This document shows, in pieces, positions 5,357-37,092 of a DNA stretch of 42,879 bases. The notes beneath the pieces were generated by a model. That model did no database searches. It was not told the origin of the DNA and was given only the letters and a program-made list of their open reading frames with translations. Both the position numbers and the translations under genes were made by a program. This DNA comes from a virus. Positions within the stretch are counted from its first letter, which is position 1; each line of letters opens with the position of its first letter. Where the stretch lies: the UHGV virus genome UHGV-0301147. One strand, given 5' to 3'.

Positions 5357-6859
5357 TCAGGCTGCTTCTTTAAAAAGGGAGGCCAGTGCTTCAACTGTAT
5401 AGTCATTATTAATGCGGTACATTAACGTAATTGTTTGTGCCGGAGATTTCGGACCAAAATCAACATTAATATAAAGATTACCCGCAGCCAGGCTTTCTTT
5501 TGTATTCAGCTCACTGTCTAACCACGCACGCCCTCCGTTAATCGCACCCTGCTCCTCTAATTTGTGCAGATATGCGTTTATCGACTCGACAACGTCTGTT
5601 CCGAGGTGCAGGTCTATCGGACGAACAATAAAATCGGTCATCATTGCCCGGGCTATAGAATCCTCAATTACGTCAGCTGTTCGACGAACGCTCTCGAAAG
5701 ACCATTGCGGGCTGAGGCTGCACAAATAGTTACCCCAGTGTCTGAACCCGTCATAGCGAATAATCGTGCTGACCTGGCTGGCATTCAGCAGGTTCGCTGT
5801 GCAGTTTGTCTCACCAATAATAAAATCGTCGACTTGTTCAAGCCCTGTAACTCCGTAGATATTCTGGTTCGATTTACTCCACCAGAATCCTTTTTCATTA
5901 TCAATTCGGGCTCGTAAACCAGCAGCGATAGCTGAATACGGACGAGATAACCCACTGACATCACTCGTAGAATAAACGCGAGGTCGCAACAACTCAGCGC
6001 GTCCGCCGAGTTTTTGCCTGCGATTCACAACGTCTGCAGGGGTAGCAGCGCGCGGAGAGTCGATATAACACACTCCCCGGAGTTTATTTGCAACCACTTC
6101 AAGCTGAGCCGCTATTTCGTCTCGTGCGCTGTAATCCGGCGCTATAATAATTCGCGGGGTAACTTCGTTAATTTGCGCTGACGTCAAAAGCGAATTAATT
6201 CCGGCGATAACATTTTCGCTCATATCAGCGTCGTCGCTACTCTCTACAACGCGAACAACAACGATTAATGCATCAGTCTGATTTAAAATATCAGAAATAG
6301 CGGGGGGCAGAGTCCCGTATTTCCCGAGCAGGGCGGCTTTCTTCTGACTACCTGCAATTAATACAGGAGAATTAATCGGGAATGCGTCATCTGTTCCACC
6401 TGATAAATTTGTTGGTGGAAGACCAAATACTGTACCGGTTCCGGAATGCTCGCCACCAAAAGTTACATTAATCCACTCTCCGTCTGTTTTCCCCTCTCTA
6501 TATTCCTGATTCTGATCATACATTTTGCCGGGGGTCATTCCCGGCTCCGTAATCATCGTTAATTTTTTTGTTCCGTCGGGCAGCGTGCTATATCCTGGAG
6601 TGCAGGTTGCGCCCTCAACTGTCATATCTACAATTTCAACAACCCATTTGTTCCCGTCGCTGCCCGGTGATACAGTTGAAAACTCAACGAGATTATCAGC
6701 CAGCGATGAGCCCCACGTTAATGATGCTCTCGTAGCCTCCGCGACGTTCGTCGCAGTACCAACAATCCCAATCACGGAAATATCTACTGTGTTGATCTCT
6801 TTTGTGCCGTCGTCGTATTCGAGCGTGCGAATACCGTGCAAAAAATTAGTTACGCTCAT
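5357..6859 (-). CDS. Contractile tail sheath protein (gpFI-like)
   Basis: 500-aa ORF with sheath-family character, in sheath-tube-chaperone-tape measure order. Confidence 0.85.
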   Translation of the reverse strand: MSVTNFLHGIRTLEYDDGTKEINTVDISVIGIVGTATNVAEATRASLTWGSSLADNLVEFSTVSPGSDGNKWVVEIVDMTVEGATCTPGYSTLPDGTKKLTMITEPGMTPGKMYDQNQEYREGKTDGEWINVTFGGEHSGTGTVFGLPPTNLSGGTDDAFPINSPVLIAGSQKKAALLGKYGTLPPAISDILNQTDALIVVVRVVESSDDADMSENVIAGINSLLTSAQINEVTPRIIIAPDYSARDEIAAQLEVVANKLRGVCYIDSPRAATPADVVNRRQKLGGRAELLRPRVYSTSDVSGLSRPYSAIAAGLRARIDNEKGFWWSKSNQNIYGVTGLEQVDDFIIGETNCTANLLNASQVSTIIRYDGFRHWGNYLCSLSPQWSFESVRRTADVIEDSIARAMMTDFIVRPIDLHLGTDVVESINAYLHKLEEQGAINGGRAWLDSELNTKESLAAGNLYINVDFGPKSPAQTITLMYRINNDYTVEALASLFKEAA

Positions 6860-15829: not shown

Positions 15830-17403
15830 CAGTTACCTCCCCAGCCGTTATCGTTGGTATTTGAGGGGTGAGATACAGACCATGACGGTTCGCTCAGCCC
15901 CATTTCACGCCGGCGCTGAATTTCGTATTCCTGCTGCTCCATAACCTCCTCGTAATCCTGTCCCTGCAGCGCCAGTTCGTTCTGATACGTGCTGAGGCCA
16001 GTTGTGATGCGCATGGCGCTCTCCTGAACCTCTTTCAGCCCATCAATCGCCATGCGACCAGCGCCGATCCAGAGCGCGTTCGTCCAGGAGTTCCGCGCCT
16101 CATAAAACGACCGGACAGCTGAGCGTGGCAGGGTGATAATTCCGCGTGCCAGCGCCTCTTCAAACCAGCAGCAGAACATCAGCGACGCCTGTCGCGCGGC
16201 GATAAAACGTCGACGCCCCATGAAAAATCGCCAGCTGACGTTAGCACTGGCCCGGGCGCTGGAGTAACTGACCTGGCTGTAGTCCCGGCTAAGTTCTTCG
16301 TATGACGCGCCAACGCCAGCTGCAACGTAACGCAGGAGTGATTTTTCCAGTGAACTAAAACCAGCATCAGCATTCTGAGCGGTCTGTAAACTGAGTTTGT
16401 CGCCGGGATGCAGGTGGGGAACTTTCACACCACCGAGCTTGATATTTGCGCCGTTGTAGTACGTCACGTAACTCTGAATAAACGAATTCAGCGGGTTCGA
16501 GTCGATATCAGTACCCGCGCCGGCGATATATTCAAACGCCTGCTGGCTGTCGAGCTCTGATTCGATTGTCGCGGCATACATCGCCTTCACAATGGCGCTC
16601 TGCAGTTGTGTTTGCTGCAGTGTGTCGAGCATTTTCAGGCGCTCCATGACGCTGTAAAAAATATTGTCCCCGCGGGTCTGTCCGTCCTCGAGCGGCTCGA
16701 ATATGTGGATGAATGCGTGTCTGCCGCTGCTGAGCTGTGCTGGGATACGCCGGCATTTACCGACTCCGCCGAGAGGGTAAGTATCCTCGGCTATCCAGTA
16801 CCCGACCGCGGCCCCGTTTTTATCGATATCAACACCGGCGCGGCGAAATTGAGTGTCAGCTGCGTAACCCGGATTTCGAATCCGTTTCGGTGAGACCATT
16901 TTGAATCGCGTCCGAAAAACGCTGCCGGCACTACTCTCCCAGACTGGTTGTACGCAGGTTTCACCGTTGAAAGCGTGAGTAGCCACGCCCTCGCGGATCA
17001 TCATTGTGAACGTCCGTTTCCGCTCGATATCAATCGTGCAGTGAGGGTCCTCGGCGTATTCAGTCCACGCTACCTCGACGTCACGCGCCAGCGCCCTGGC
17101 GTCCTCGCGAGATATGCCGAGGTAACGCCAGTTAGGGCGATAACTCAACTTAAACAGATTGCCGACGATATGATCCTGGTGCAGCTGCACGGCGTTCGAC
17201 GCGACGCCGTTATTGCGAACGAGATCGTCTGCTCGCGCGTTACCGCGATAAAAATTCGGCAACAGTGCTGCGTCGGCGCTCTGCTGTGGTGCGTTCCAGT
17301 CAATCAGCTGGCCACCGAAACCGGGACCGCCGCCGTTATACCCCGCGTAACGGCGTAGTGGCGTTTTACCGTCAGGCCCGAGCAGCTGCTGCGGAGCAGT
17401 CAT
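15829..17403 (-). CDS. Portal protein, lambda gpB family
   Basis: 524-aa ORF between the gpW-like and protease genes. Confidence 0.85.
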   Translation of the reverse strand: MTAPQQLLGPDGKTPLRRYAGYNGGGPGFGGQLIDWNAPQQSADAALLPNFYRGNARADDLVRNNGVASNAVQLHQDHIVGNLFKLSYRPNWRYLGISREDARALARDVEVAWTEYAEDPHCTIDIERKRTFTMMIREGVATHAFNGETCVQPVWESSAGSVFRTRFKMVSPKRIRNPGYAADTQFRRAGVDIDKNGAAVGYWIAEDTYPLGGVGKCRRIPAQLSSGRHAFIHIFEPLEDGQTRGDNIFYSVMERLKMLDTLQQTQLQSAIVKAMYAATIESELDSQQAFEYIAGAGTDIDSNPLNSFIQSYVTYYNGANIKLGGVKVPHLHPGDKLSLQTAQNADAGFSSLEKSLLRYVAAGVGASYEELSRDYSQVSYSSARASANVSWRFFMGRRRFIAARQASLMFCCWFEEALARGIITLPRSAVRSFYEARNSWTNALWIGAGRMAIDGLKEVQESAMRITTGLSTYQNELALQGQDYEEVMEQQEYEIQRRREMGLSEPSWSVSHPSNTNDNGWGGN

Positions 17404-17633
17404 AATCGAACTCCCACGGGCCGACGGCGTCCCGTACTCAGACCGAGCTGTGATTTCAGCTCGATAATGTACGTTCGGAGCTGCTCAATACTCGCCTGCG
17501 AGTATTGATAGCTCCGGTTATTTCCTGCTGAATCGCCGTGAGACAGCGACACGGTCGATTTACCCGTTAATAATTTGTGCAGAGCGATTTCCGCTTCCAG
17601 CAGTCGTTCTGTTAAAACCTCGCGCGACGTCAT
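17400..17633 (-). CDS. Head-tail joining protein, lambda gpW family
   Basis: 77-aa ORF between terminase large subunit and portal. Confidence 0.8.
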   Translation of the reverse strand: MTSREVLTERLLEAEIALHKLLTGKSTVSLSHGDSAGNNRSYQYSQASIEQLRTYIIELKSQLGLSTGRRRPVGVRL

Positions 17634-21403: not shown

Positions 21404-21675
21404 TACCTGTCTCCTGTTATTTTTGAAATATTCCCTCGTGCCCGCCAGACAGCAATACAGATGGTGAGGTTGAGAAAGAACTCTGCGGGATCAACCTGCG
21501 TATATTTCCCGTAAAAAATTCGTAGGGCTATCCACGCAGCAGACAGAATCGCCAGGTAAGCAGTTAGTGAGATGAAAAAACGATAGCGGCCTGTTTTTTG
21601 AAAAAACATTAACCGCAGTGCCAGCATCAGACAGATAATTGCATTGGCATTGATGAGGACAGAGTGCAGGGTCAT
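21403..21675 (-). CDS. Holin-like membrane protein
   Basis: 90-aa ORF with three predicted transmembrane segments in the lysis cassette. Confidence 0.55.
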   Translation of the reverse strand: MTLHSVLINANAIICLMLALRLMFFQKTGRYRFFISLTAYLAILSAAWIALRIFYGKYTQVDPAEFFLNLTICIAVWRARGNISKITGDR

Positions 21676-22058
21676 TATTTCATCCCCTTATCTGATTTCC
21701 ATAAACGAGCTTGTGACATGATCCGCAACAGTGATGTAACGCTGATTACTGATGCAACCAGTGCACCAATGGCGGGAGAGACTTTTACTGTTACGGGAGG
21801 GTTCAGGTGACTCAGCACCGCGTTCAGAATACCGGTAATGATTGCTGACGCTGTCTCAGCGCAATACACACCGCCAACAAACGAAATGAGTGCGAAAATA
21901 ACCTGCTTCCAGAATCGATGCTGCCCGGATGACAACACATAGAGAGCTGCGCCTGCCAGCGCACAGATCATCACTGCAGGTGTTGCCTCAGGAAATAACG
22001 CAGCAAACGTCACCCCCGCCGAGCCAGCAGCAACGCCAGCGGTTAGAGGTTCAGACAT
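21675..22058 (-). CDS. Holin-like membrane protein
   Basis: 127-aa ORF with multiple hydrophobic helices, first gene after the tR'-like terminator. Confidence 0.6.
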   Translation of the reverse strand: MSEPLTAGVAAGSAGVTFAALFPEATPAVMICALAGAALYVLSSGQHRFWKQVIFALISFVGGVYCAETASAIITGILNAVLSHLNPPVTVKVSPAIGALVASVISVTSLLRIMSQARLWKSDKGMK

Positions 22059-22082
22059 GATTTTTCCTGATTCAGAAACGAC

Positions 22083-22102
22083 AAAACCCCGCCGTGGCGA
22101 GG
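22083..22102 (-). terminator. tR'-like rho-independent terminator upstream of the holin gene
   Basis: Minus strand reads CCTCGCC-ACG-GCGGGG followed by TTTT, ~25 bp upstream of the holin start. Confidence 0.5.
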
Positions 22103-22452
22103 TTCTTAGAAATTTGGCAATATACCAAATTAGCGTTAAATATGGCCTATTTTGTTCGGTTTTGCAAGCATTATACGCAAACGTCGTCTAAATGGTTTTG
22201 ATAATGATGCAAAGTTGCAAGAAGTGCCACTTCATCAAGTGCTCTCACCGCCTCTTTCATTCCTGCCCAGTGCGGGGAGTATGTTTCGCACCAGGTGGAA
22301 CGAGAAACAGACAACATTCCAGCTAGCGCAGATCCGGCCATCTCCTTAAAATCCTCGCGTTTATTTGATGCTGCGACCGCCTGCACGGACAACCACACCA
22401 ACGAAAGCAGGCGCTTAACTACTTTTCTCTGAGTTGACGCGGGGATGTTTCC

Positions 22453-22480
22453 TTTATAGCGACTCCAGACAGCCTAACAA
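22453..22480 (-). promoter_or_regulatory. pR'-like late promoter candidate immediately after the Q-like gene
   Basis: Minus strand TTGTTA - 16 nt - TATAAA overlapping the stop of the 22474-22842 gene. Confidence 0.35.
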
Positions 22481-22842
22481 ATAGCTGTTTGGTGTTTGAA
22501 TGCCAGGTTACCACCGTAGCAATAACGCAACCACGCTTGCTGACTTGCATCCAGCGAGTTCACAGAACGCCGCCAGGATGAATCAGCAAATTCAAAATCA
22601 CTCATCGGCGGCGCGGGGCGACGTCTGCTGAAACTTTCCAGAGCGTAAACTGGCGTAACCAGAGCATCAACGGTCCGGTCCTCCAGCTGCACACGGTGAA
22701 TATGTTTGCGTGGGTATGCGTTTTTGTCTGCCGGTGGGTGCTCACACAATGCTTCCAGTTGCCCCTTAGAACCACCAGACAAATCCCGCAATGCAGCGCG
22801 CAGTTTTATGCGGGTATATTCCAATAAATACTCGTTACTCAT
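22474..22842 (-). CDS. Putative late-gene antiterminator (Q-like); assignment is positional
   Basis: 122-aa ORF between the YbcO-like gene and the promoter/terminator/holin region; lacks the DxD motif of RusA. Confidence 0.4.
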   Translation of the reverse strand: MSNEYLLEYTRIKLRAALRDLSGGSKGQLEALCEHPPADKNAYPRKHIHRVQLEDRTVDALVTPVYALESFSRRRPAPPMSDFEFADSSWRRSVNSLDASQQAWLRYCYGGNLAFKHQTAIC

Positions 22843-24768: not shown

Positions 24769-24845
24769 AGGTTTTCATAATTACCTCGAATAATAAAAAC
24801 TGCACTATTTGCACAATTTATTATTCGTTTTCACATCGCAGGGTT

Positions 24846-24875
24846 CTATAAAAAAGAAAACCCGCCGAAGCGGGT
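24846..24875 (-). terminator. Rho-independent terminator after the 24897-25175 gene
   Basis: Minus strand aacccgc-ttcg-gcgggtt hairpin followed by TTCTTTTTTAT. Confidence 0.6.
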
Positions 24876-24896
24876 TAGTTAATAAGTTACACCTGG

Positions 24897-25175
24897 TTAT
24901 GAGGCCATGCCGTAGGCTTTTTTATGCATCCCATGGTCATATCCCATGTTATATGCTTCAAAAGCATCTTTATGACGTACATGCCCGGCCTGGCTTTCGG
25001 GTAAATCACCTAAAACAGAGTCATCAACCGCACGCGGAACGCCAATTAATGCGTGCCACATACCTTTATCATAGGCACATCCACAACATTTGTGCCGCCC
25101 AACGTTCCCCTGATTTGCGGAAAGAACATCAAACATACTGTCGTGACGATGTGACTTTTTACAGATGTGTTTCAT
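24897..25175 (-). CDS. Small Cys/His-rich hypothetical protein
   Basis: 92-aa ORF followed by its own terminator; start may be the internal Met; no family recognised. Confidence 0.45.
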   Translation of the reverse strand: MKHICKKSHRHDSMFDVLSANQGNVGRHKCCGCAYDKGMWHALIGVPRAVDDSVLGDLPESQAGHVRHKDAFEAYNMGYDHGMHKKAYGMAS

Positions 25176-25203
25176 TCATTGACCTATATCATTTTCGGTA
25201 ATG

Positions 25204-25265
25204 AATGCTTTACACGGGATCCCGGTTGAGGTAATCTCCCAAACCGAGATCTCAACGAAAGCATT
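25204..25265 (+). ncRNA. Candidate structured small RNA (nested stem-loops) ending at the plus-strand terminator
   Basis: Outer stem aatgcttt / aaagcatt (25204-25211 with 25258-25265) enclosing gggatccc and an interrupted helix ggttgag...atctc / gagatctcaac; a terminator follows 9 nt downstream. Confidence 0.3.
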
Positions 25266-25273
25266 AACCGATG

Positions 25274-25308
25274 TTTTTGTATGGCCCTGACAGCTCCAAC
25301 TGTCAGGG
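25274..25308 (+). terminator. Rho-independent terminator (plus strand) with no protein gene upstream on that strand
   Basis: 10-bp stem gccctgacag / ctgtcagggc, 6-nt loop, followed by TTTCCCTTT. Confidence 0.6.
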
Positions 25309-25395
25309 CTTTCCCTTTGATGCGATTCTAAAATCTTCGCAACCTCCAGATCCTATCCAGGACCAAGAAAAACTTCAATGAAAAGATCAAGTTAG

Positions 25396-25415
25396 ATCTG
25401 TATTTTTTTACAGAT
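25396..25415. promoter_or_regulatory. Second LexA-box-like site
   Basis: atCTGTatttttttACAGat fits CTGT-N8-ACAG with an AT-only centre; in the 567-bp intergenic region between the 92-aa gene and the ImmA-like gene. Confidence 0.45.
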
Positions 25416-25651
25416 GTAATAAATCACACATGTAATAGCCTTCCCTTCCTGTGCTCATCCAGGCGCTTGTGGCATCCATTTTTTTCAGAAACATATGGAC
25501 GCCTAAAAAACCACTAATCTCATGATTATCCTGTATGTTTTTACTGGAAACATTGAGACATCCACAATGCAGCGTAAAAAGCAAGCAATTCACAAGATTT
25601 TAAAGTGATTTATCTGGAAGACTTTACTACTAACAGTTAATATCGTACCAG

Positions 25652-25670
25652 AAGTGCAGAATTTGCACTT
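25652..25670. promoter_or_regulatory. 19-bp perfect palindrome (operator candidate) upstream of the ImmA-like operon
   Basis: AAGTGCA-GAATT-TGCACTT, ~75 bp upstream of the start at 25743. Confidence 0.4.
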
Positions 25671-25742
25671 TTACAGGAATGTGGTACGGAACATGTTGTC
25701 TATATTTCGACCAATAATCGTAATGCAGTAACTGGAGGAGCT

Positions 25743-26231
25743 ATGGCTACCAACCCAAGAGAGCACGCCCGGCGAGTGCTGGACACGTTCTGGTGCGGGC
25801 GTGGTTTCCCTGTTGATCCAGCGAAAATTGCTCACGACATGGGATTAGATGTTTTTATTACCGATCTTCCTGGGAAAGTTTCTGGCGCACTGATTAAACA
25901 AAAAGATCAAGATCCAGCGATCTTTCTAAACAGTGATGACAACAAAGTTCGTCAACGTTTTTCATGTGGGCATGAGTTGGGGCATTACATCGCCCGGCAA
26001 GCATCGCATAGCGATGAATATGAGTACGTTGATTTACGTGGCGAAACCGCAAGCGCCGGAACGCATCCTGATGAAATTTTTGCGAACAAGTTCGCAGCAG
26101 AACTTCTGATGCCGGTAGATGAGGTCAGAAAACTGCACGCTGACGGCCAACCAAGTTATATAATGGCGCATCATTTTGGCGTATCTGACGATGCGATGAC
26201 TTATCGTTTAAAGAACTTGAGGTTGGGGTAA
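25743..26231 (+). CDS. ImmA/IrrE family zinc metallopeptidase
   Basis: 162-aa ORF with HEXXH motif (CGHELGHYIARQ) and strong SD GGAGGAG. Confidence 0.85.
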   Translation: MATNPREHARRVLDTFWCGRGFPVDPAKIAHDMGLDVFITDLPGKVSGALIKQKDQDPAIFLNSDDNKVRQRFSCGHELGHYIARQASHSDEYEYVDLRGETASAGTHPDEIFANKFAAELLMPVDEVRKLHADGQPSYIMAHHFGVSDDAMTYRLKNLRLG

Positions 26232-26240
26232 CGCTTTAGA

Positions 26241-26846
26241 ATGCCATCGGATGACGATTTTAACAGCCGTTTCAAACAGGAAGTTGCACGCCGACTGAAG
26301 GATTCCCTCAACCTACACCGTCAGTTAGCAGAAGAGGTTGAGCCGGAGGAGGATGAAACTCCGGTTCAGTCTCCTGACGAAACTTCACCTCAGACAAAGG
26401 TTTCGCACGCTCCAAAAAAACCGTCTGCCCGTATTCACGGAATAGCCAGAAAAAGAGCTGCCGAAGCTCACAAAATGGCTGTAGCTGCGTCAATCAAAAG
26501 AATTCCAATTCCTACCCCCTCTCAACAAGTCACCCGTACTGAGAGTAAAATCTTGACCGAGTTCACATCTGTGAAACAGGTGAGTTCACTTGATACCGAG
26601 CATGAGCGCAAACAACTCAACAACAAAGATTTTGAAGCTGAAATCGCTCTAAAAAAACGCTACGGAAAATGGTTCCTGATAATCCTTGCTTGCCAACTTC
26701 TGATAATGAATGGTGTATTTATTGCCGACGGCGCAGGTAAGCTGGAATTTGAAGATTTAACGCTACAGTTGTACATGGGCGGTACTTTGACAGAGGTATT
26801 CGGCCTCGTGCTGGTCGTGACAAAATACCTTTTTAAACGCAAGTAA
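26241..26846 (+). CDS. Hypothetical membrane protein (acidic N-terminal region, two C-terminal transmembrane helices), co-operonic with the ImmA-like gene
   Basis: 201-aa ORF starting 9 bp after the ImmA-like stop; hydrophobic segments KWFLIILACQLLIMNGVFIA and GGTLTEVFGLVLVVTKYLF. Confidence 0.6.
   Translation: MPSDDDFNSRFKQEVARRLKDSLNLHRQLAEEVEPEEDETPVQSPDETSPQTKVSHAPKKPSARIHGIARKRAAEAHKMAVAASIKRIPIPTPSQQVTRTESKILTEFTSVKQVSSLDTEHERKQLNNKDFEAEIALKKRYGKWFLIILACQLLIMNGVFIADGAGKLEFEDLTLQLYMGGTLTEVFGLVLVVTKYLFKRK
26775..26846 (+). repeat. Direct repeat copy A (last 24 codons of the membrane-protein gene)
   Basis: 72 bp matching 30377-30448 with 6 mismatches. Confidence 0.8.
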
Positions 26847-26955
26847 CTCTCTCTATGGAACAGACTTTAGTCGATTTAATGGAGAAGACCAGCAACCCCA
26901 AATGACCAAGTAACAAGTGCTGGCCTTATAGACGATTACTGAGTGTGTTCGAGTG

Positions 26956-27360
26956 TTATCGTTGTACAATTCGTCCGTTGGGATCCAGCCACATCCCATC
27001 AGAAAGATACACCATTTCCCTGGGTTCATCCGTTACCTGCAGGTCATGGTAAATTGAAGTAAGCTCATTTTTAGGTGAAGGAGTGATATCTTCGCTTCCA
27101 AAGATCATATCTTGGTATTGTGCCCAATTTTGGCGAATTTCGAAATACATATCAACATCATAATCCTGCCCTCTTAGTTCATCATCTGAAGATATATTCA
27201 ATGTCTTTTTGAGACCGATGATGTTAAAGATCCACTTCTTACCACCTTTAATGAAGTATGCCCCAGTATATGCCTCTTCATCTGGTACAGCCTCATAACC
27301 TAAATTTAATGCTAATTGTATCTGTTCTGCTAATGTAAAAGACTCTTTCCATCCACTCAT
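26956..27360 (-). CDS. Hypothetical acidic protein
   Basis: 134-aa ORF in the low-GC cassette; no family recognised. Confidence 0.5.
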   Translation of the reverse strand: MSGWKESFTLAEQIQLALNLGYEAVPDEEAYTGAYFIKGGKKWIFNIIGLKKTLNISSDDELRGQDYDVDMYFEIRQNWAQYQDMIFGSEDITPSPKNELTSIYHDLQVTDEPREMVYLSDGMWLDPNGRIVQR

Positions 27361-27680
27361 AGCTTATTACCTACCTGTGAACCTGTTTGCTGCATGAAAA
27401 ACAATATAATAAAGCGTTATTGAAGACTATGAACCAAGTAAATTTAATCAAAGACGTTTATAACGCATTTGCCTAAACAACTTCCACCGTATGATCCGCT
27501 TCTCGCTCTCAGCAGACCTTTATCTGCAGGTGCTTGTCTGCTGTGTTCCAGAAGCAGATATTATTATATAACTCTTTAACCCATGTATGACAAAATATTC
27601 TTGGAGCTTATTAAAACTTCATACGTCTAAATCACCTCTTCATTAGTGAATCAATAATTGTATAGTTAAAATGTAACACT

Positions 27681-28346
27681 TTATTTTTTATGATTAACTT
27701 GCTTTGCTAAAGAGCTATAAATCATATCAACCAAAACATATTTTTCGCATTCCCAAGGTTCACTAATAGATGGGTTTACTAAGTCTGGCTTCCCCCCCAT
27801 TAGTGTATGAACATGCGAATAAATACCTATTCTTTCTGCGAGTTGCATTATTTTTATTTGATGTTCTGGTGGGAGCATTTTGTTTTTAAACCATGTTGTA
27901 AATATATGCTTGGTAAGTTCCTTAGTACAAACAAACCATTCACCTTGACGTCTTTCGTTGCTAAATTTTTCATGAAGATAATTTTCTTTTTCTGAACCAC
28001 CAGGTTCCAAAGCGTGTAATATTAATTGACCAAATGCACCTGTTTGCAGGTTAGACAACCTTTTTAGCACATTATTGGAACGCCCTATTTTCACATAAAG
28101 TCCCGAGTAAGGGTTATTTTTATCTGAAGAACCGGCCCAAGTATCAGGCACTTGTAAAATATAATAAATACTACTTACTTTCCCACTCGATACATTATTT
28201 GCCCAAATCTGCCATTCTTCCATCCAGCTTTTTGCATCTTCTCTCGTGTCAAAGGCATGACTTGTATAGTAAAATTCACCAGTATCCAAGAACATATCGA
28301 AAACATATTTGCCATTCTCTATAATTCTTAAGTTGTCGGCTTTCAT
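27681..28346 (-). CDS. T5orf172 (MUG113, GIY-YIG-like) domain protein; putative defence-type nuclease
   Basis: 221-aa ORF containing LYVKIGRSNNVLKRLSNLQTG ... ENYLHEKFSNERRQGEWF, matching the T5orf172 signature (YKIG-T ... R ... L ... E ... LH ... F ... R ... GEWF); AT-rich. Confidence 0.75.
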   Translation of the reverse strand: MKADNLRIIENGKYVFDMFLDTGEFYYTSHAFDTREDAKSWMEEWQIWANNVSSGKVSSIYYILQVPDTWAGSSDKNNPYSGLYVKIGRSNNVLKRLSNLQTGAFGQLILHALEPGGSEKENYLHEKFSNERRQGEWFVCTKELTKHIFTTWFKNKMLPPEHQIKIMQLAERIGIYSHVHTLMGGKPDLVNPSISEPWECEKYVLVDMIYSSLAKQVNHKK

Positions 28347-29374: not shown

Positions 29375-30298
29375 ATGAGATTAAAATACTCAGTACTCTT
29401 ACTCGCCATTGCCCTTACAGGCTGTGATAACAAAAAAGATGAGATCGGTTGTTCTTCGGAAATGACCCAATCAGCTCTCATGGATTTATTAAAAAAATCT
29501 GCTTATGAAGGACTCTCTGAACAGGTCGATAAATACCCTGATGTCACTAATCAGACCAAACGAAGCACACTGGACAAGATCAAACTAGCCGTCTCTGAAA
29601 TCTCCACAACATCAAGTGACACGGGCAGCACAATGAAAACTTGTGAAGGGACCGTGACGATGACTCTACCTGCGAACGAGTACGTCCAGCTTTCAGATGC
29701 TTACAGAAAGAATTTTAATCGTAATCTCGACAAGCAAATGGAAAGCCTGTTTTTGGAGAACAACGCAAACGCCTTTTCCAAACGTATCACCTACACCGTG
29801 CAGGCGACCGACGATCAGAAAAACGTTTTTGTAAAAACCTCTTCTGATAATCCGATATCAGTGGGCGCCGCTTTACTGACATCACTTTCTATTATCAACC
29901 CGATCGTTGAGCAGCAGAAAATCCAGCAGGCTAAGGATGCCCAACAGAGCCAAATTGAAGCGGAACAACAGGTGCAACTCAGGGCGCAGGAACAGGCTAA
30001 GTATGAGGCGGAGAAGCAAATAGAGAGACAGGCACAACTTCAGCCACAAAAAGCTGACAGCCTTGATCAGTCCCGAATGGCATTTGCGAATGCCGACTCT
30101 GATTTGAGTACCGTCTGGAGCAAGTTAACCCCGGCGAAGAAAAAAGATTTGCTGCCTTCTCAGCGTCAGTGGATCAAAACTAAGGATGCTATGTGCGGTA
30201 AAGTTTCAATGCAGGGAACAGATGCTGAAGTCAAGAAAATGCTCGACTGCCAGACGCAAATGACCCTTTCAAGAATCGCTTTCCTCAGAAACCAATAA
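29375..30298 (+). CDS. Lipoprotein with Gln-rich coiled-coil region and C-terminal DUF1311 (LprI-like) domain
   Basis: 307-aa ORF with lipobox LTGC and C-terminal DLLPSQRQWIKTKDAMCG ... MLDCQTQMTLSRIAFL typical of DUF1311. Confidence 0.7.
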   Translation: MRLKYSVLLLAIALTGCDNKKDEIGCSSEMTQSALMDLLKKSAYEGLSEQVDKYPDVTNQTKRSTLDKIKLAVSEISTTSSDTGSTMKTCEGTVTMTLPANEYVQLSDAYRKNFNRNLDKQMESLFLENNANAFSKRITYTVQATDDQKNVFVKTSSDNPISVGAALLTSLSIINPIVEQQKIQQAKDAQQSQIEAEQQVQLRAQEQAKYEAEKQIERQAQLQPQKADSLDQSRMAFANADSDLSTVWSKLTPAKKKDLLPSQRQWIKTKDAMCGKVSMQGTDAEVKKMLDCQTQMTLSRIAFLRNQ

Positions 30299-30346: not shown

Positions 30347-30376
30347 AGTCATCAAGTGCATATTTAACTGTTTTAT

Positions 30377-30448
30377 ATGGGCGGTACTTTGACAGAGGTA
30401 TTCGGTCTCGTGCTGGTCGTGGTCAAATACCTTTTTAAACGCAAATAG
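30377..30448 (+). repeat. Direct repeat copy B (orphan 24-codon remnant of the membrane-protein gene 3' end)
   Basis: 72 bp matching 26775-26846; retains ATG and a stop but no upstream gene body. Confidence 0.8.
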
Positions 30449-35876: not shown

Positions 35877-36353
35877 TCATGCATGGTGGCCTTGCGCAGT
35901 GCTTATCACTGCTCCTCGCGTCGCTACCAGCGCCGCTATTGCTTCGTCAATTTCCTGAATAGTTAACTCTGGCGCGAAGTGGAGATGTACAGCGTTAATC
36001 GCTTCCACCCCTTCTTTTGCCGCCAGCGTTGCCAGCAAAACGGGATCGCCCGGCGACTCCAGACGCGCCCGCCGTTCTGCGGGTAGCACTGCTTTCATCA
36101 CACTGGCCAGCACCTGAGTTTTTCGGCGCGCCGCCGTTGTCTCGCCACGTAACCAGCGAAAGATTTTCTGCCGGTTGTTGTTGATGGCTCTCCAGTCCAC
36201 GTTGCCGTCCGTGTCCTCAAATTCATGTAGTCTCAACTCATCATTGCGTCCCTGACTGAACCAGGCCCGGCAGATTTCAATCGTGACGAGTTCCTGCCCT
36301 GCCCTTGCCGCCCAGGTCAAAATCTCTTTTTGTAATTCCTCTTGGTTTTCCAT
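35877..36353 (-). CDS. YdaT-like / CII-analogue regulatory protein (tentative)
   Basis: 158-aa ORF immediately downstream of the Cro-like gene, as in YdaS-YdaT arrangements. Confidence 0.45.
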   Translation of the reverse strand: MENQEELQKEILTWAARAGQELVTIEICRAWFSQGRNDELRLHEFEDTDGNVDWRAINNNRQKIFRWLRGETTAARRKTQVLASVMKAVLPAERRARLESPGDPVLLATLAAKEGVEAINAVHLHFAPELTIQEIDEAIAALVATRGAVISTAQGHHA

Positions 36354-36412: not shown

Positions 36413-36610
36413 CTAAGCTTTTTCATGTTTTGGAACATCGTAAAAAGTCGGGTCATATTTCAGTGCTCCATTAGTGATATGGTCGAGTCGAGCTGCTCGC
36501 TTTTCAGGAACTGTTGCCCCCCAACGAGTAACCGCCACTTGTGATATACCCAGCACCTTGGCTGTGGCTGTCTTTGAACCAAAAAAACTAATAACCGTCT
36601 CTGTTTTCAT
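36413..36610 (-). CDS. Cro-like HTH regulator (YdaS/DicC-like)
   Basis: 65-aa ORF divergent from the repressor gene. Confidence 0.7.
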   Translation of the reverse strand: MKTETVISFFGSKTATAKVLGISQVAVTRWGATVPEKRAARLDHITNGALKYDPTFYDVPKHEKA

Positions 36611-36678: not shown

Positions 36679-37092
36679 ATGAGGATGAAAAATTTGATGC
36701 TTAGCGACCGTTTATCTCAAAGACGCAAACAGCTTGGTCTAACCCAACAACAGCTTGCTGATATGGTTGGAAGATCGAGTGTGAGCGTTTTTAAATGGGA
36801 AAGCGGACAAAATGAACCAAAGGGCCAGAACTTGTTGGCTTTGGCCAATGCACTCAAGTGTTCTGCCACATGGCTGCTTTTTGGTGACGAAGACCAGGCG
36901 CCAACTCCGGTAGACGAATTACCAACAGAGCTGGATTCACGTCAAAAAAGATTGTTAGAGTTATTTGATTCATTACCCGAGTCAGAAAAAGAAAAGCAAC
37001 TAATTGAATTAGAAGATAAAGTTGAAAACTTTAATCGTTTATTTGAAGAGTTACTGGTTACCAGAAAGAAACTAACCCCCACCAAAAAATAA
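36679..37092 (+). CDS. CI-like prophage repressor, XRE-family HTH only (no S24 autopeptidase domain)
   Basis: 137-aa ORF with HTH LTQQQLADMVGRSSVSVFKWESG; too short for a LexA-like cleavage domain; start may be the Met at 36697. Confidence 0.8.
   Translation: MRMKNLMLSDRLSQRRKQLGLTQQQLADMVGRSSVSVFKWESGQNEPKGQNLLALANALKCSATWLLFGDEDQAPTPVDELPTELDSRQKRLLELFDSLPESEKEKQLIELEDKVENFNRLFEELLVTRKKLTPTKK

What the first reader, a model, noticed from the sequence alone, without database searches (positions are those of the whole stretch)
25652..26846. Two-gene operon: ImmA/IrrE-type metallopeptidase plus membrane protein, preceded by a 19-bp palindrome
The peptidase ORF (HEXXH in CGHELGHYIARQ) is followed 9 bp later by a 201-aa protein with a long acidic N-terminal region and two C-terminal transmembrane helices. 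ImmA/IrrE peptidases normally pair with an HTH repressor they cleave, and none is adjacent. The arrangement suggests either a protease-controlled membrane effector or a protease acting in trans on the HTH-only prophage repressor at 36679-37092.
Basis: partly seen in the sequence, partly recalled or inferred. Interest (0 to 1): 0.75.

Follow-up and report, generated by a model that had tools for sequence, protein, structure and literature searches.

The report
Peptidase-guarded membrane toxin defence pair
This two-gene prophage cassette, a small zinc peptidase followed by a small membrane protein, is the E. coli relative of a toxin-antitoxin phage-defence pair already tested in Gordonia phage Kita, so it is an uncharacterised member of a known kind, not a new system.

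Summary
Both ORFs are real. The peptidase is 25743-26231 (162 aa, M78/ImmA-IrrE, HELGH at residues 77-81). Nine bases later comes a 201-aa protein (26241-26846) with a C-terminal two-helix membrane hairpin. No HTH gene is adjacent.

The pair is a tightly linked, mobile module. The same peptidase-then-membrane-protein order, with gaps from -23 to +12 nt, occurs in about 21 distinct contexts from Enterobacterales to Firmicutes and actinophages. All sit in accessory slots of prophages, satellites or integrative elements.

The peptidase is 43% identical over its full length to Gordonia phage Kita gp32 (RmrA_D25). The membrane-protein family profile matches Kita gp33 (RmrT_D5) at hhalign probability 93.9%, and at 30.9 bits against 10.1 or less for 4,000 shuffles. 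Ernits et al. 2023 showed that the Kita pair is a Rosmer-type toxin-antitoxin system: a membrane-depolarising toxin, partly neutralised by the peptidase, that protects E. coli from some phages.

The best reading is therefore a prophage-borne abortive-infection cassette. PADLOC models do not detect it. The full pair occurs in 431 of 5,426 complete E. coli genomes, including ST131.

The 19-bp palindrome is real but lineage-specific and is not part of the conserved module. Action in trans on the prophage repressor is not supported, though it is not excluded.

The parts
25743..26231 (+). Minimal M78 (ImmA/IrrE-type) zinc metallopeptidase of 162 aa, the predicted antitoxin or regulator. H77-E78-x-x-H81 is encoded at 25971-25985 and the third ligand E111 at 26073-26075.
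   Evidence: Pfam PF06114 E 1.4e-17. PADLOC CapP 1.6e-25; RmrA models match the peptidase part only, best 3e-12. 43% identity over 157 aa to Kita gp32/RmrA_D25, E 7e-41. AF2 pLDDT 89; best PDB folds are CapP 7t5t (TMq 0.74) and IrrE 3dte, covering only their protease domain. H77, E78, H81 and E111 are invariant in 43 homologues.
26241..26846 (+). Small inner-membrane protein of 201 aa, the predicted pore-forming or depolarising toxin. It has an N-terminal helix (aa 4-32), a disordered linker (aa 33-118, acidic patch 31-47), a juxtamembrane helix (aa 119-143), TM1 (aa 144-164) and TM2 (aa 172-198). Predicted topology is N-in/C-in.
   Evidence: ORF and hydropathy. AF2 model. No Pfam, NCBIfam or PADLOC hit; phrog_5346, unknown function. 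The family has 692 clusters at 50% identity, all small proteins. Family profile versus Kita gp33/RmrT_D5: hhalign 93.9%, E 1.6e-7; HMM score 30.9 bits against a maximum of 10.1 in 4,000 shuffles. E185 is invariant and Q152 and N157 nearly invariant within the TM helices.
26232..26240 (+). 9-nt spacer between the two genes (CGCTTTAGA after the TAA stop). The genes are in the same frame, which suggests operon organisation and translational coupling.
   Evidence: Sequence. The spacing in homologous loci ranges from a 23-nt overlap to a 12-nt gap.
25652..25670 (+). Near-perfect 19-bp palindrome (7+5+7), the inner stem of a two-tier hairpin. It is lineage-specific.
   Evidence: Not conserved outside the E. 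coli/E. whittamii copies.
25644..25688 (+). Outer inverted repeat CGTACCA / TGGTACG enclosing the palindrome, conserved between E. coli and Salmonella. It lies directly downstream of a conserved block ending in TAATAT (25638-25643), a possible -10 element. It may be a stem-loop at the 5' end of the mRNA (inference).
   Evidence: The promoter scan found no strong sigma-70 site here. No Rfam match.
30367..30447 (+). Orphan 81-nt copy (90% identical) of the toxin gene's 3' end, downstream of the LprI-family gene. It is a relic of an earlier copy of the module and marks cargo turnover.
   Evidence: The same relic occurs without the pair in E. coli E24377A.

Best explanation
The two genes form a self-contained toxin-antitoxin-type anti-phage (abortive infection) cassette carried as cargo by a lambdoid prophage. 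It is the enterobacterial homologue of the Gordonia phage Kita RmrA_D25/RmrT_D5 'minimal Rosmer' system.

The 201-aa protein inserts in the inner membrane through its conserved C-terminal helical hairpin. When it is not held in check it oligomerises and dissipates the membrane potential. The 162-aa zinc peptidase, made from the same transcript just upstream, keeps it harmless, most likely by cutting its cytoplasmic N-terminal or juxtamembrane part. An infecting phage disturbs this balance by inhibiting or outcompeting the peptidase, or by shutting off its synthesis. The toxin then depolarises the cell before the phage completes its cycle, which protects the lysogen population.

Shown here: homology to the tested pair, strict gene linkage and order across phyla, location in accessory slots of mobile elements, intact catalytic residues, and conserved polar residues inside the TM helices.

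Shown by others, for the Kita homologue only: toxicity, depolarisation, partial neutralisation by the peptidase, and phage protection.

Inferred: that the E. coli pair behaves the same way, that neutralisation is proteolytic, and what the trigger is.
For: Homology to the tested pair:
- Peptidase is 43% identical over its full length to Kita gp32, E 7e-41.
- Membrane-family profile versus Kita gp33: hhalign probability 93.9%, E 1.6e-7, over the whole TM core.
- The profile scores Kita gp33 at 30.9 bits, against at most 8.3 for full shuffles and 10.1 for block shuffles, and 2.7 for the reversed sequence.
- An actinobacterial intermediate (L017) links the two: BLASTP 4e-10 to gp33, and 45.8 bits against the family profile A3.
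- Kita gp32/gp33 have the same order and overlap by 4 nt.

Published function of the Kita pair (PMC10440598):
- The toxin causes rapid depolarisation and permeabilisation.
- The peptidase partly neutralises it.
- The operon protects E. coli from Bas54 and Bas59.
- Canonical RosmerTA is a Zn-peptidase antitoxin plus a toxin, and the rmrA deletion could not be transformed.

Linkage and mobility:
- The peptidase lies immediately upstream of the membrane protein in 17 of 17 loci.
- The same holds in Pectobacterium, Salmonella, Silvimonas, a Firmicute, a metagenomic contig and a second E. coli prophage type.
- Observed positions are beside integrases, after Q, in the tail-fibre/Lom region, in P4-like elements, and in the window between the replication genes and Q on the opposite strand.

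Other support:
- H77/E78/H81/E111 are invariant in 43 homologues down to 44% identity.
- E185 is invariant and Q152/N157 nearly invariant inside the TM helices, and the E and N are also present in Kita gp33.
- An E. coli type I-E CRISPR spacer matches 26797-26828 perfectly, with an AAG PAM.
Against: - No experiment exists on this E. coli pair.
- The toxin homology to Kita is remote: about 25% identity over 76 columns, and a BLAST search of the phage collection with the E. coli protein found nothing.
- The E. coli protein carries about 100 extra N-terminal residues that Kita gp33 lacks.
- In the Kita study neutralisation was incomplete and no complex could be modelled, so the 'antitoxin' role and its mechanism are not firmly established.
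- No PADLOC RmrT model matches the membrane protein, and the RmrA models match only the peptidase domain.
- The trigger is unknown.
- Plasmid-stabilisation-like addiction or superinfection exclusion would fit the same genomics.
Confidence: 0.68

Rival explanations
1. Protease-activated effector. The full-length membrane protein is held inactive by its N-terminal region. The peptidase, switched on by an infection cue, removes that region and releases a pore-forming hairpin. The logic matches bacterial gasdermins and their proteases (this comparison rests on my own knowledge, not on a tool result).
For: The catalytic residues are invariant. The enterobacterial proteins have a conserved N-terminal helix followed by a long disordered linker that could act as a removable inhibitory arm. 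Neutralisation by the peptidase in Kita was only partial.
Against: In the Kita homologue the full-length toxin alone is toxic and depolarising, and co-expressing the peptidase reduces rather than increases toxicity. Most family members have only 20-50 residues before the conserved core. The 162-aa peptidase has no sensor domain.
Confidence: 0.12
2. Trans-acting anti-repressor. The peptidase cleaves the HTH-only prophage repressor (36679-37092), as ImmA cleaves ImmR and CapP cleaves CapH. The membrane protein acts as its tether or sensor, so that membrane or superinfection stress induces the prophage.
For: The repressor is an HTH_3 domain plus a C-terminal helical region (137 aa) with no S24 autoprotease domain, which is the usual architecture of ImmA-type substrates. 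The Serratia prophage carrying the pair has a homologous repressor, 28% identity, E 7e-16. Other E. coli prophages with the pair also have HTH-only/Cro/YdaT immunity regions. CapP is the peptidase's closest solved structure.
Against: The repressor is about 10 kb away, and no HTH gene is adjacent in any of about 21 contexts. The pair is retained in Salmonella next to an integrase remnant beside SPI-5 genes, with no prophage genes in the 6-kb flanks. It also occurs in P4-like and integrative elements. The Kita pair acts in E. coli without its phage's repressor. My impression is that HTH-only/YdaT immunity regions are common in E. coli prophages, so the co-occurrence carries little weight.
Confidence: 0.07
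3. An addiction/stabilisation module or a superinfection-exclusion function with no abortive-infection role. Either the toxin-antitoxin pair only stabilises the element that carries it, or the membrane protein blocks DNA entry of incoming phages.
For: The pair is always on mobile elements, often next to integrases. Small prophage membrane proteins are classic exclusion factors (general knowledge). An orphan toxin 3' fragment shows turnover at the cargo slot.
Against: The Kita homologue gave phage-specific protection from a plasmid and has a depolarising toxin. An invariant catalytic peptidase partner is not expected for a simple entry blocker.
Confidence: 0.1

Closest known systems
Gordonia phage Kita gp32/gp33 = RmrA_D25 / RmrT_D5 (NetFlax D25:D5 pair; Ernits et al. 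2023, PMC10440598)
   Same: Both have an M78-only peptidase of 160-180 aa directly followed by a small protein with a C-terminal two-helix membrane region. The peptidases are 43% identical over their full length and the toxin cores are homologous by profile. Gene order and tight coupling are the same. Both sit in accessory slots of temperate phages.
   Different: The E. coli toxin is 201 aa against 119 aa. It has an enterobacteria-specific N-terminal helix and a roughly 85-residue disordered linker. The toxin cores are only about 25% identical. The host phylum differs. The E. coli pair has not been tested.
Canonical RosmerTA (RmrT/RmrA; Millman et al. 2022)
   Same: A two-gene toxin-antitoxin-type defence with a Zn-peptidase-containing antitoxin and a toxin of otherwise unknown family. 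The PADLOC RmrA models match the peptidase domain.
   Different: The RmrA models are 357-400 aa. The RmrA proteins often carry an N-terminal HTH. The window peptidase is 162 aa and matches only the peptidase part of those models, about positions 145-300. No RmrT model matches the membrane protein, so PADLOC v2.0.0 models give no Rosmer call.
ImmR/ImmA, DdrO/IrrE and CapH/CapP repressor-protease switches
   Same: Same M78 fold and HEXXH...E zinc site. CapP (7t5t) and IrrE (3dte) are the best structural matches.
   Different: Those proteases have an adjacent HTH repressor as substrate and extra C-terminal domains, and they regulate transcription. Here there is no HTH partner in about 21 contexts and no extra domain, and the conserved partner is a membrane protein.
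PanA-PanT membrane toxins (for example B. choladocola PanT_D11)
   Same: A small toxin with a cytoplasmic N-terminal region and a C-terminal TM segment that depolarises the membrane, neutralised by an upstream protein partner.
   Different: The antitoxin is a Panacea (DUF4065) domain that acts by binding, not an M78 peptidase. No sequence relationship was tested here.
PD-lambda-2 (Vassallo et al. 2022)
   Same: An E. coli defence system that contains an ImmA/IrrE-type peptidase domain.
   Different: It has three genes: a HigB-like toxin, an Xre-peptidase fusion and a P4-antitoxin-like protein. It has no membrane component.

Membership tests
M78 (ImmA/IrrE) zinc metallopeptidases | Peptidase_M78 domain with HEXXH and a downstream glutamate ligand | tested here: met
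   Pfam PF06114 at 64 bits against a cutoff of 22. H77, E78, H81 and E111 are invariant in 43 homologues. The fold matches CapP and IrrE.
ImmA/ImmR-, IrrE/DdrO-, CapP/CapH-type regulatory switches | Adjacent HTH (XRE) repressor gene that is the protease's substrate | tested here: not met
   No HTH domain in the neighbouring ORFs. No HTH gene next to the pair in about 21 homologous contexts.
ImmA/ImmR-, IrrE/DdrO-, CapP/CapH-type regulatory switches | Additional C-terminal regulatory or sensor domain on the protease (as in IrrE and CapP) | tested here: not met
   The protein is 162 aa. The structural alignment covers only part of the targets (TMt 0.34-0.45, targets 240-330 aa). The PADLOC CapP match covers profile positions 3-151 of 242.
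NetFlax D25:D5 pair (Kita RmrA_D25/RmrT_D5) | Peptidase homologous over its full length to RmrA_D25 | tested here: met
   43% identity over 157 aa, E 7e-41.
NetFlax D25:D5 pair (Kita RmrA_D25/RmrT_D5) | Downstream small protein homologous to RmrT_D5 with a C-terminal TM region | tested here: met
   hhalign probability 93.9%, E 1.6e-7. 30.9 bits against at most 10.1 in 4,000 shuffles. Bridging sequence L017. This is remote homology, not close similarity.
NetFlax D25:D5 pair (Kita RmrA_D25/RmrT_D5) | Toxicity of the membrane protein, neutralisation by the peptidase, and phage protection | not testable with these tools
   Reported only for the Kita pair. Requires experiments on the E. coli genes.
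Canonical RosmerTA as modelled in PADLOC v2.0.0 | Full-length match to an RmrA model plus a match to an RmrT model | tested here: not met
   The RmrA models match only the peptidase domain (best 3e-12, on models of 357-400 aa). The membrane protein has no PADLOC hit at E 0.1 or better.
Type II-like toxin-antitoxin operon | Two small adjacent co-directional genes, tightly spaced, conserved as a pair on mobile elements | tested here: met
   Spacing from -23 to +12 nt in about 21 contexts. Only one peptidase homologue, at 45% identity, lacks the partner.

The most novel reading that the evidence does not exclude
The peptidase is a true enzymatic antitoxin that continuously clips the cytoplasmic arm of its own membrane toxin. 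The enterobacteria-specific N-terminal helix and linker of the toxin act as a bait that a phage factor can occupy, or that competes with a second substrate. That second substrate could be the HTH-only, YdaT-type prophage repressor, so that one protease would couple abortive infection to prophage escape. This would be a proteolytic mode of toxin control with a dual output, not described for Rosmer-type systems in the papers I could read.
Probability: 0.1. Interest if true: 0.7.

Novelty: new member of a known kind. Interest (0 to 1): 0.33.

Why it matters
The cassette is common. The full pair is present in 431 of 5,426 complete E. coli genomes, including ST131 blood isolates. The membrane-protein family spans about 700 clusters at 50% identity across several phyla.

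It is nonetheless annotated only as 'ImmA/IrrE peptidase + hypothetical protein', and PADLOC models do not recognise it. Linking it to the tested Kita RmrTA pair gives these genes a testable function: prophage-encoded abortive infection through membrane depolarisation.

It also offers an E. coli-native model for an open question about Rosmer-type systems, namely how a bare M78 peptidase keeps a membrane toxin silent and what releases it. This bears on defence-system annotation and on predicting phage-therapy host range in clinical E. coli lineages.

Tried and rejected
- Pfam, NCBIfam and PADLOC on the membrane protein gave no hit. PHROGs gave only an unknown-function family.
- tblastn of the membrane protein found nothing in INPHARED phages. 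In PLSDB it found one weak hit in a mislabelled chromosome.
- Foldseek of the membrane-protein model against the PDB gave nothing meaningful (the model has pLDDT 63).
No complex model could therefore be made.
- The palindrome as a repeated operator was rejected: no second copy in the window within 2 mismatches, and the 3-mismatch hits are at chance level.
- No Rfam family matches 24800-27500.
- The promoter scan found no strong sigma-70 site upstream of the peptidase.
- No E. coli LexA box (CTGT-N8-ACAG) was seen by eye in the upstream region. The nearest is CTGT-N8-ACTG at about 25531, which is not a match.
- PD-lambda-2 was considered and rejected because its architecture differs.
- Literature searches found nothing for the E. 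coli protein accessions or for other studies of an M78 plus TM pair.
- The guess that the '2 places per genome' were a second intact pair was wrong. The second place is an orphan 81-nt 3' fragment.
Full report
**Observation**

The first runs 25743-26231 (+) and encodes 162 aa behind a GGAGGA ribosome-binding site. The second runs 26241-26846 (+), encodes 201 aa, and starts 9 nt after the first stop codon in the same frame.

The first protein is a Peptidase_M78 (ImmA/IrrE) domain (Pfam E 1.4e-17). HELGH lies at residues 77-81 and the third ligand glutamate at residue 111. All four catalytic residues are invariant in 43 homologues down to 44% identity. The AlphaFold model is confident (pLDDT 89). 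It resembles only the protease domain of CapP (7t5t) and IrrE (3dte), so this is a 'minimal' M78 enzyme without a sensor or HTH domain.

The second protein matches nothing in Pfam, NCBIfam or PADLOC. Its model shows:
- an N-terminal helix (residues 4-32);
- a disordered stretch (residues 33-118);
- a long helix (119-164) that ends in TM1;
- a second TM helix (172-198).

Positive charges flank both ends of the hairpin, which predicts an N-in/C-in topology.

The 'acidic N-terminus' is only a patch at about residues 31-47. Residues 1-118 are roughly neutral overall. No neighbouring ORF has an HTH domain.

**The palindrome**

AAGTGCA-GAATT-TGCACTT (25652-25670) is real. It sits inside a second inverted repeat, CGTACCA/TGGTACG (25644-25688). 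The intergenic region is enriched in such hairpins, with 4 against 0.24 expected. The 48-nt element is unusually stable, at z -4.4.

It occurs once in the window and matches no Rfam family.

It is conserved only in near-identical E. coli and E. whittamii copies, including ST131. In Salmonella the outer arms and an upstream block ending in TAATAT are conserved, but the inner arms are replaced by a different inverted repeat. In Klebsiella, Serratia, Buttiauxella, Leclercia and Pectobacterium the upstream region is unrelated.

This pattern fits a lineage-specific structured 5' leader better than a sequence-specific operator, but that is an inference. The palindrome is not a defining part of the module.

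**Context**

The window is an E. coli prophage with lambdoid early genes, integrated beside tRNA-Leu, pgsA and uvrC.

The pair lies on the opposite strand to the phage genes, in a variable cargo slot between the replication genes and DUF1367/DUF1364/Q. That slot also holds a T5orf172/GIY-YIG protein, an LprI-family lipoprotein and an ORF6N protein. Only the pair, not its flanks, is shared widely. The full pair is present in 431 of 5,426 complete E. coli genomes, whereas only 21 of them also share the flanking sequence.

**A conserved, mobile two-gene unit**

The membrane protein belongs to a family of small proteins: 692 clusters at E 1e-3 or better, with the listed members 49-236 aa long. The conserved part is the C-terminal 95 or so residues (LKKxYG...QLxxMNxxF...LYMGGTLxEVFGxVLVxTKYLF). 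The N-terminal regions are variable and often acidic. None of the listed members is long enough to carry a fused enzymatic or DNA-binding domain.

In every locus recovered through the membrane protein, an M78 peptidase of 160-190 aa lies immediately upstream. This held in 17 of 17 loci. It also held for a Firmicute, a metagenomic contig and a second E. coli prophage type.

Starting instead from peptidase homologues at about 55% identity, the downstream gene is again a member of this membrane family in Pectobacterium, Salmonella and Silvimonas. Only one peptidase, at 45% identity, lacks the partner.

Intergenic distances run from a 23-nt overlap to a 12-nt gap. The contexts are accessory positions of mobile elements:
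- beside integrases in Klebsiella, E. coli and Silvimonas;
- after Q and before the holin genes in Serratia;
- in the tail-fibre/Lom region in Salmonella;
- in a P4-like element in Pectobacterium;
- in Salmonella, next to an integrase remnant beside pipA/pipB/sopB, with no prophage genes in the 6-kb flanks.

**Link to a tested system**

A literature search led to Ernits et al. 2023 (PMC10440598). Its NetFlax network contains an ImmA-protease 'antitoxin' hub (D25). The authors validated the pair from Gordonia phage Kita: RmrA_D25 (YP_009301393.1, annotated Peptidase_M78 only) and RmrT_D5 (YP_009301394.1, annotated 'Transmembrane'). They reported that:
- the toxin rapidly depolarises and permeabilises E. 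coli;
- the peptidase neutralises it partly;
- the operon protects against BASEL phages Bas54 and Bas59;
- AlphaFold could not model the complex.

I retrieved the Kita locus. gp32 (178 aa) and gp33 (119 aa) overlap by 4 nt and sit between the tail genes and the integrase cassette.

The window peptidase is 43% identical to gp32 over 157 residues, E 7e-41. A profile of 24 diverse non-actinobacterial members of the membrane family aligns with gp33 over the whole TM core, at hhalign probability 93.9% and E 1.6e-7. As an HMM it scores gp33 at 30.9 bits. By comparison:
- 2,000 full shuffles reached at most 8.3 bits;
- 2,000 block shuffles that keep the hydrophobic segments in place reached at most 10.1 bits;
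- the reversed sequence scored 2.7 bits.

A family member from a Rhodococcus MAG bridges the two groups. The window pair is therefore a homologue of the Kita pair. In the wider sense used by Millman et al. 2022 (Zn-peptidase antitoxin plus toxin), it is a Rosmer-type system.

**Mechanism**

The most likely mechanism is a toxin-antitoxin-type abortive-infection cassette. The membrane protein is a depolarising toxin. The co-translated peptidase keeps it silent, and infection releases it.

Two observations made here add to the published picture:
- The catalytic residues of the peptidase are invariant across the family. This argues that neutralisation needs proteolysis rather than mere binding.
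- The TM hairpin carries an invariant glutamate (E185) and nearly invariant Q152 and N157. The glutamate and the asparagine are also present in Kita gp33. This fits an oligomeric ion-conducting assembly.

Both points are inferences. The substrate of the peptidase, the cleavage site and the trigger are unknown.

**Rivals**

- Activator model: the peptidase removes an inhibitory arm. The Kita data argue against it, but the longer E. coli N-terminus keeps it possible (confidence 0.12).
- Trans-acting anti-repressor model: this draws some colour from the repressor's architecture, an HTH_3 domain plus a C-terminal helical region, and from a homologous repressor in the Serratia prophage. The module's independence from any particular repressor, and its retention beside an integrase remnant with no prophage genes in the flanks, argue against it (confidence 0.07).
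- Addiction or superinfection exclusion only (confidence 0.10).

**Comparison and novelty**

As a kind, this is known: the NetFlax D25:D5 pair, Rosmer-type. As a member it is uncharacterised and differs in three ways:
- it has an enterobacteria-specific N-terminal helix and a disordered linker;
- it is only remotely similar to the tested toxin;
- the PADLOC RmrA models (357-400 aa) match only the peptidase domain and no RmrT model matches the toxin, so current PADLOC models miss it.

It is not a member of the ImmA/ImmR, IrrE/DdrO or CapP/CapH regulatory switches. Their defining HTH partner and extra protease domains were tested for and are absent.

I found no paper mentioning the E. coli proteins. 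The library I could search is incomplete.

**Verdict**

The second interpretation is unsupported. Interest is moderate to low (0.33). The value lies in annotating a frequent E. coli prophage cargo and in offering a native model for how a bare M78 peptidase controls a membrane toxin.

Noticed in passing
window 26797-26828; L033 601-632 (E. coli 23CRST031, NZ_AP045800.1, CRISPR array 569968-570484): A type I-E CRISPR spacer in another E. coli strain matches the TM2-coding part of the toxin gene perfectly (32/32). The flanking CTT reads as AAG on the protospacer strand, which I recognise as the canonical I-E PAM. The module or its carrier has therefore been a target of CRISPR adaptation.
   Followed up: partly
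window 26765-26845 and 30367-30447; L034 4001-4085 (E. coli E24377A): An 81-nt direct repeat. The 3' end of the toxin gene recurs at 90% identity as an orphan fragment just downstream of the LprI-family gene. E24377A keeps only the fragment and has no intact pair. This suggests recombination-driven turnover of cargo over an older copy of the module. It also explains the '2 places per genome' seen in the E. coli searches.
   Followed up: partly
window 27681-28346 (-): A 221-aa protein with MUG113/T5orf172 (GIY-YIG-like) domains (Pfam 6.4e-10 and 4.3e-7; phrog_8130). PADLOC PDC-S57 hits are weak (0.0036). It may be a further single-gene defence candidate or a homing-type nuclease in the same cargo slot.
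   Followed up: no
window 29375-30298 (+): A 307-aa LprI-family protein (PF07007, 3.2e-7). Its N-terminus (LLLAIALTGC) looks like a lipoprotein signal. It is encoded on the same strand as the pair, opposite to the phage genes, so it is another moron in the slot.
   Followed up: no
window 36679-37092 (+), 36413-36610 (-), 35877-36353 (-); L005 313-711 (-): The immunity region consists of an HTH_3-only repressor (137 aa, helical C-terminus), a P22_Cro-like protein and a YdaT-family protein. The repressor is homologous over both domains (28% identity, E 7e-16) to the repressor of the Serratia prophage that also carries the peptidase-toxin pair. Other E. coli prophages with the pair also have YdaT-type immunity regions (L029-L032). 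Whether this is a coincidence or a functional link is unresolved.
   Followed up: partly
window 25283-25310 and the whole 25176-25742 intergenic region: A terminator-like hairpin with a perfect 10-bp stem (GCCCTGACAG/CTGTCAGGGC, followed by a T-rich tail) and further inverted repeats (25392-25419, 25204-25265) lie in the 567-bp divergent intergenic region. No gene or Rfam family accounts for them.
   Followed up: no
L006/L007 (Salmonella enterica), pair at 5503-6468: In Salmonella the pair sits between a Bax1-I-family gene and a truncated integrase, directly beside pipA, pipB and sopB (SPI-5 effector genes). No prophage genes appear in the 6-kb flanks. The arrangement is conserved in many assemblies.
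   Followed up: no
L001 (E. coli Z0117EC0036, NZ_CP098214.1) 16872-17543 and 21657-22670: In the strain with a 100% identical pair, the Q antiterminator is annotated as a pseudogene with an internal stop. In addition, an IS1A element interrupts the counterpart of the window's 134-aa ORF (26956-27360). That prophage copy is probably defective, yet the pair stays intact.
   Followed up: no
L029-L032 8304-9101 (-): In the second E. coli prophage type, the pair lies between the prophage integrase and a Peptidase_M90 (MtfA-like) gene, next to another integrase. This looks like a tandem-element junction.
   Followed up: no
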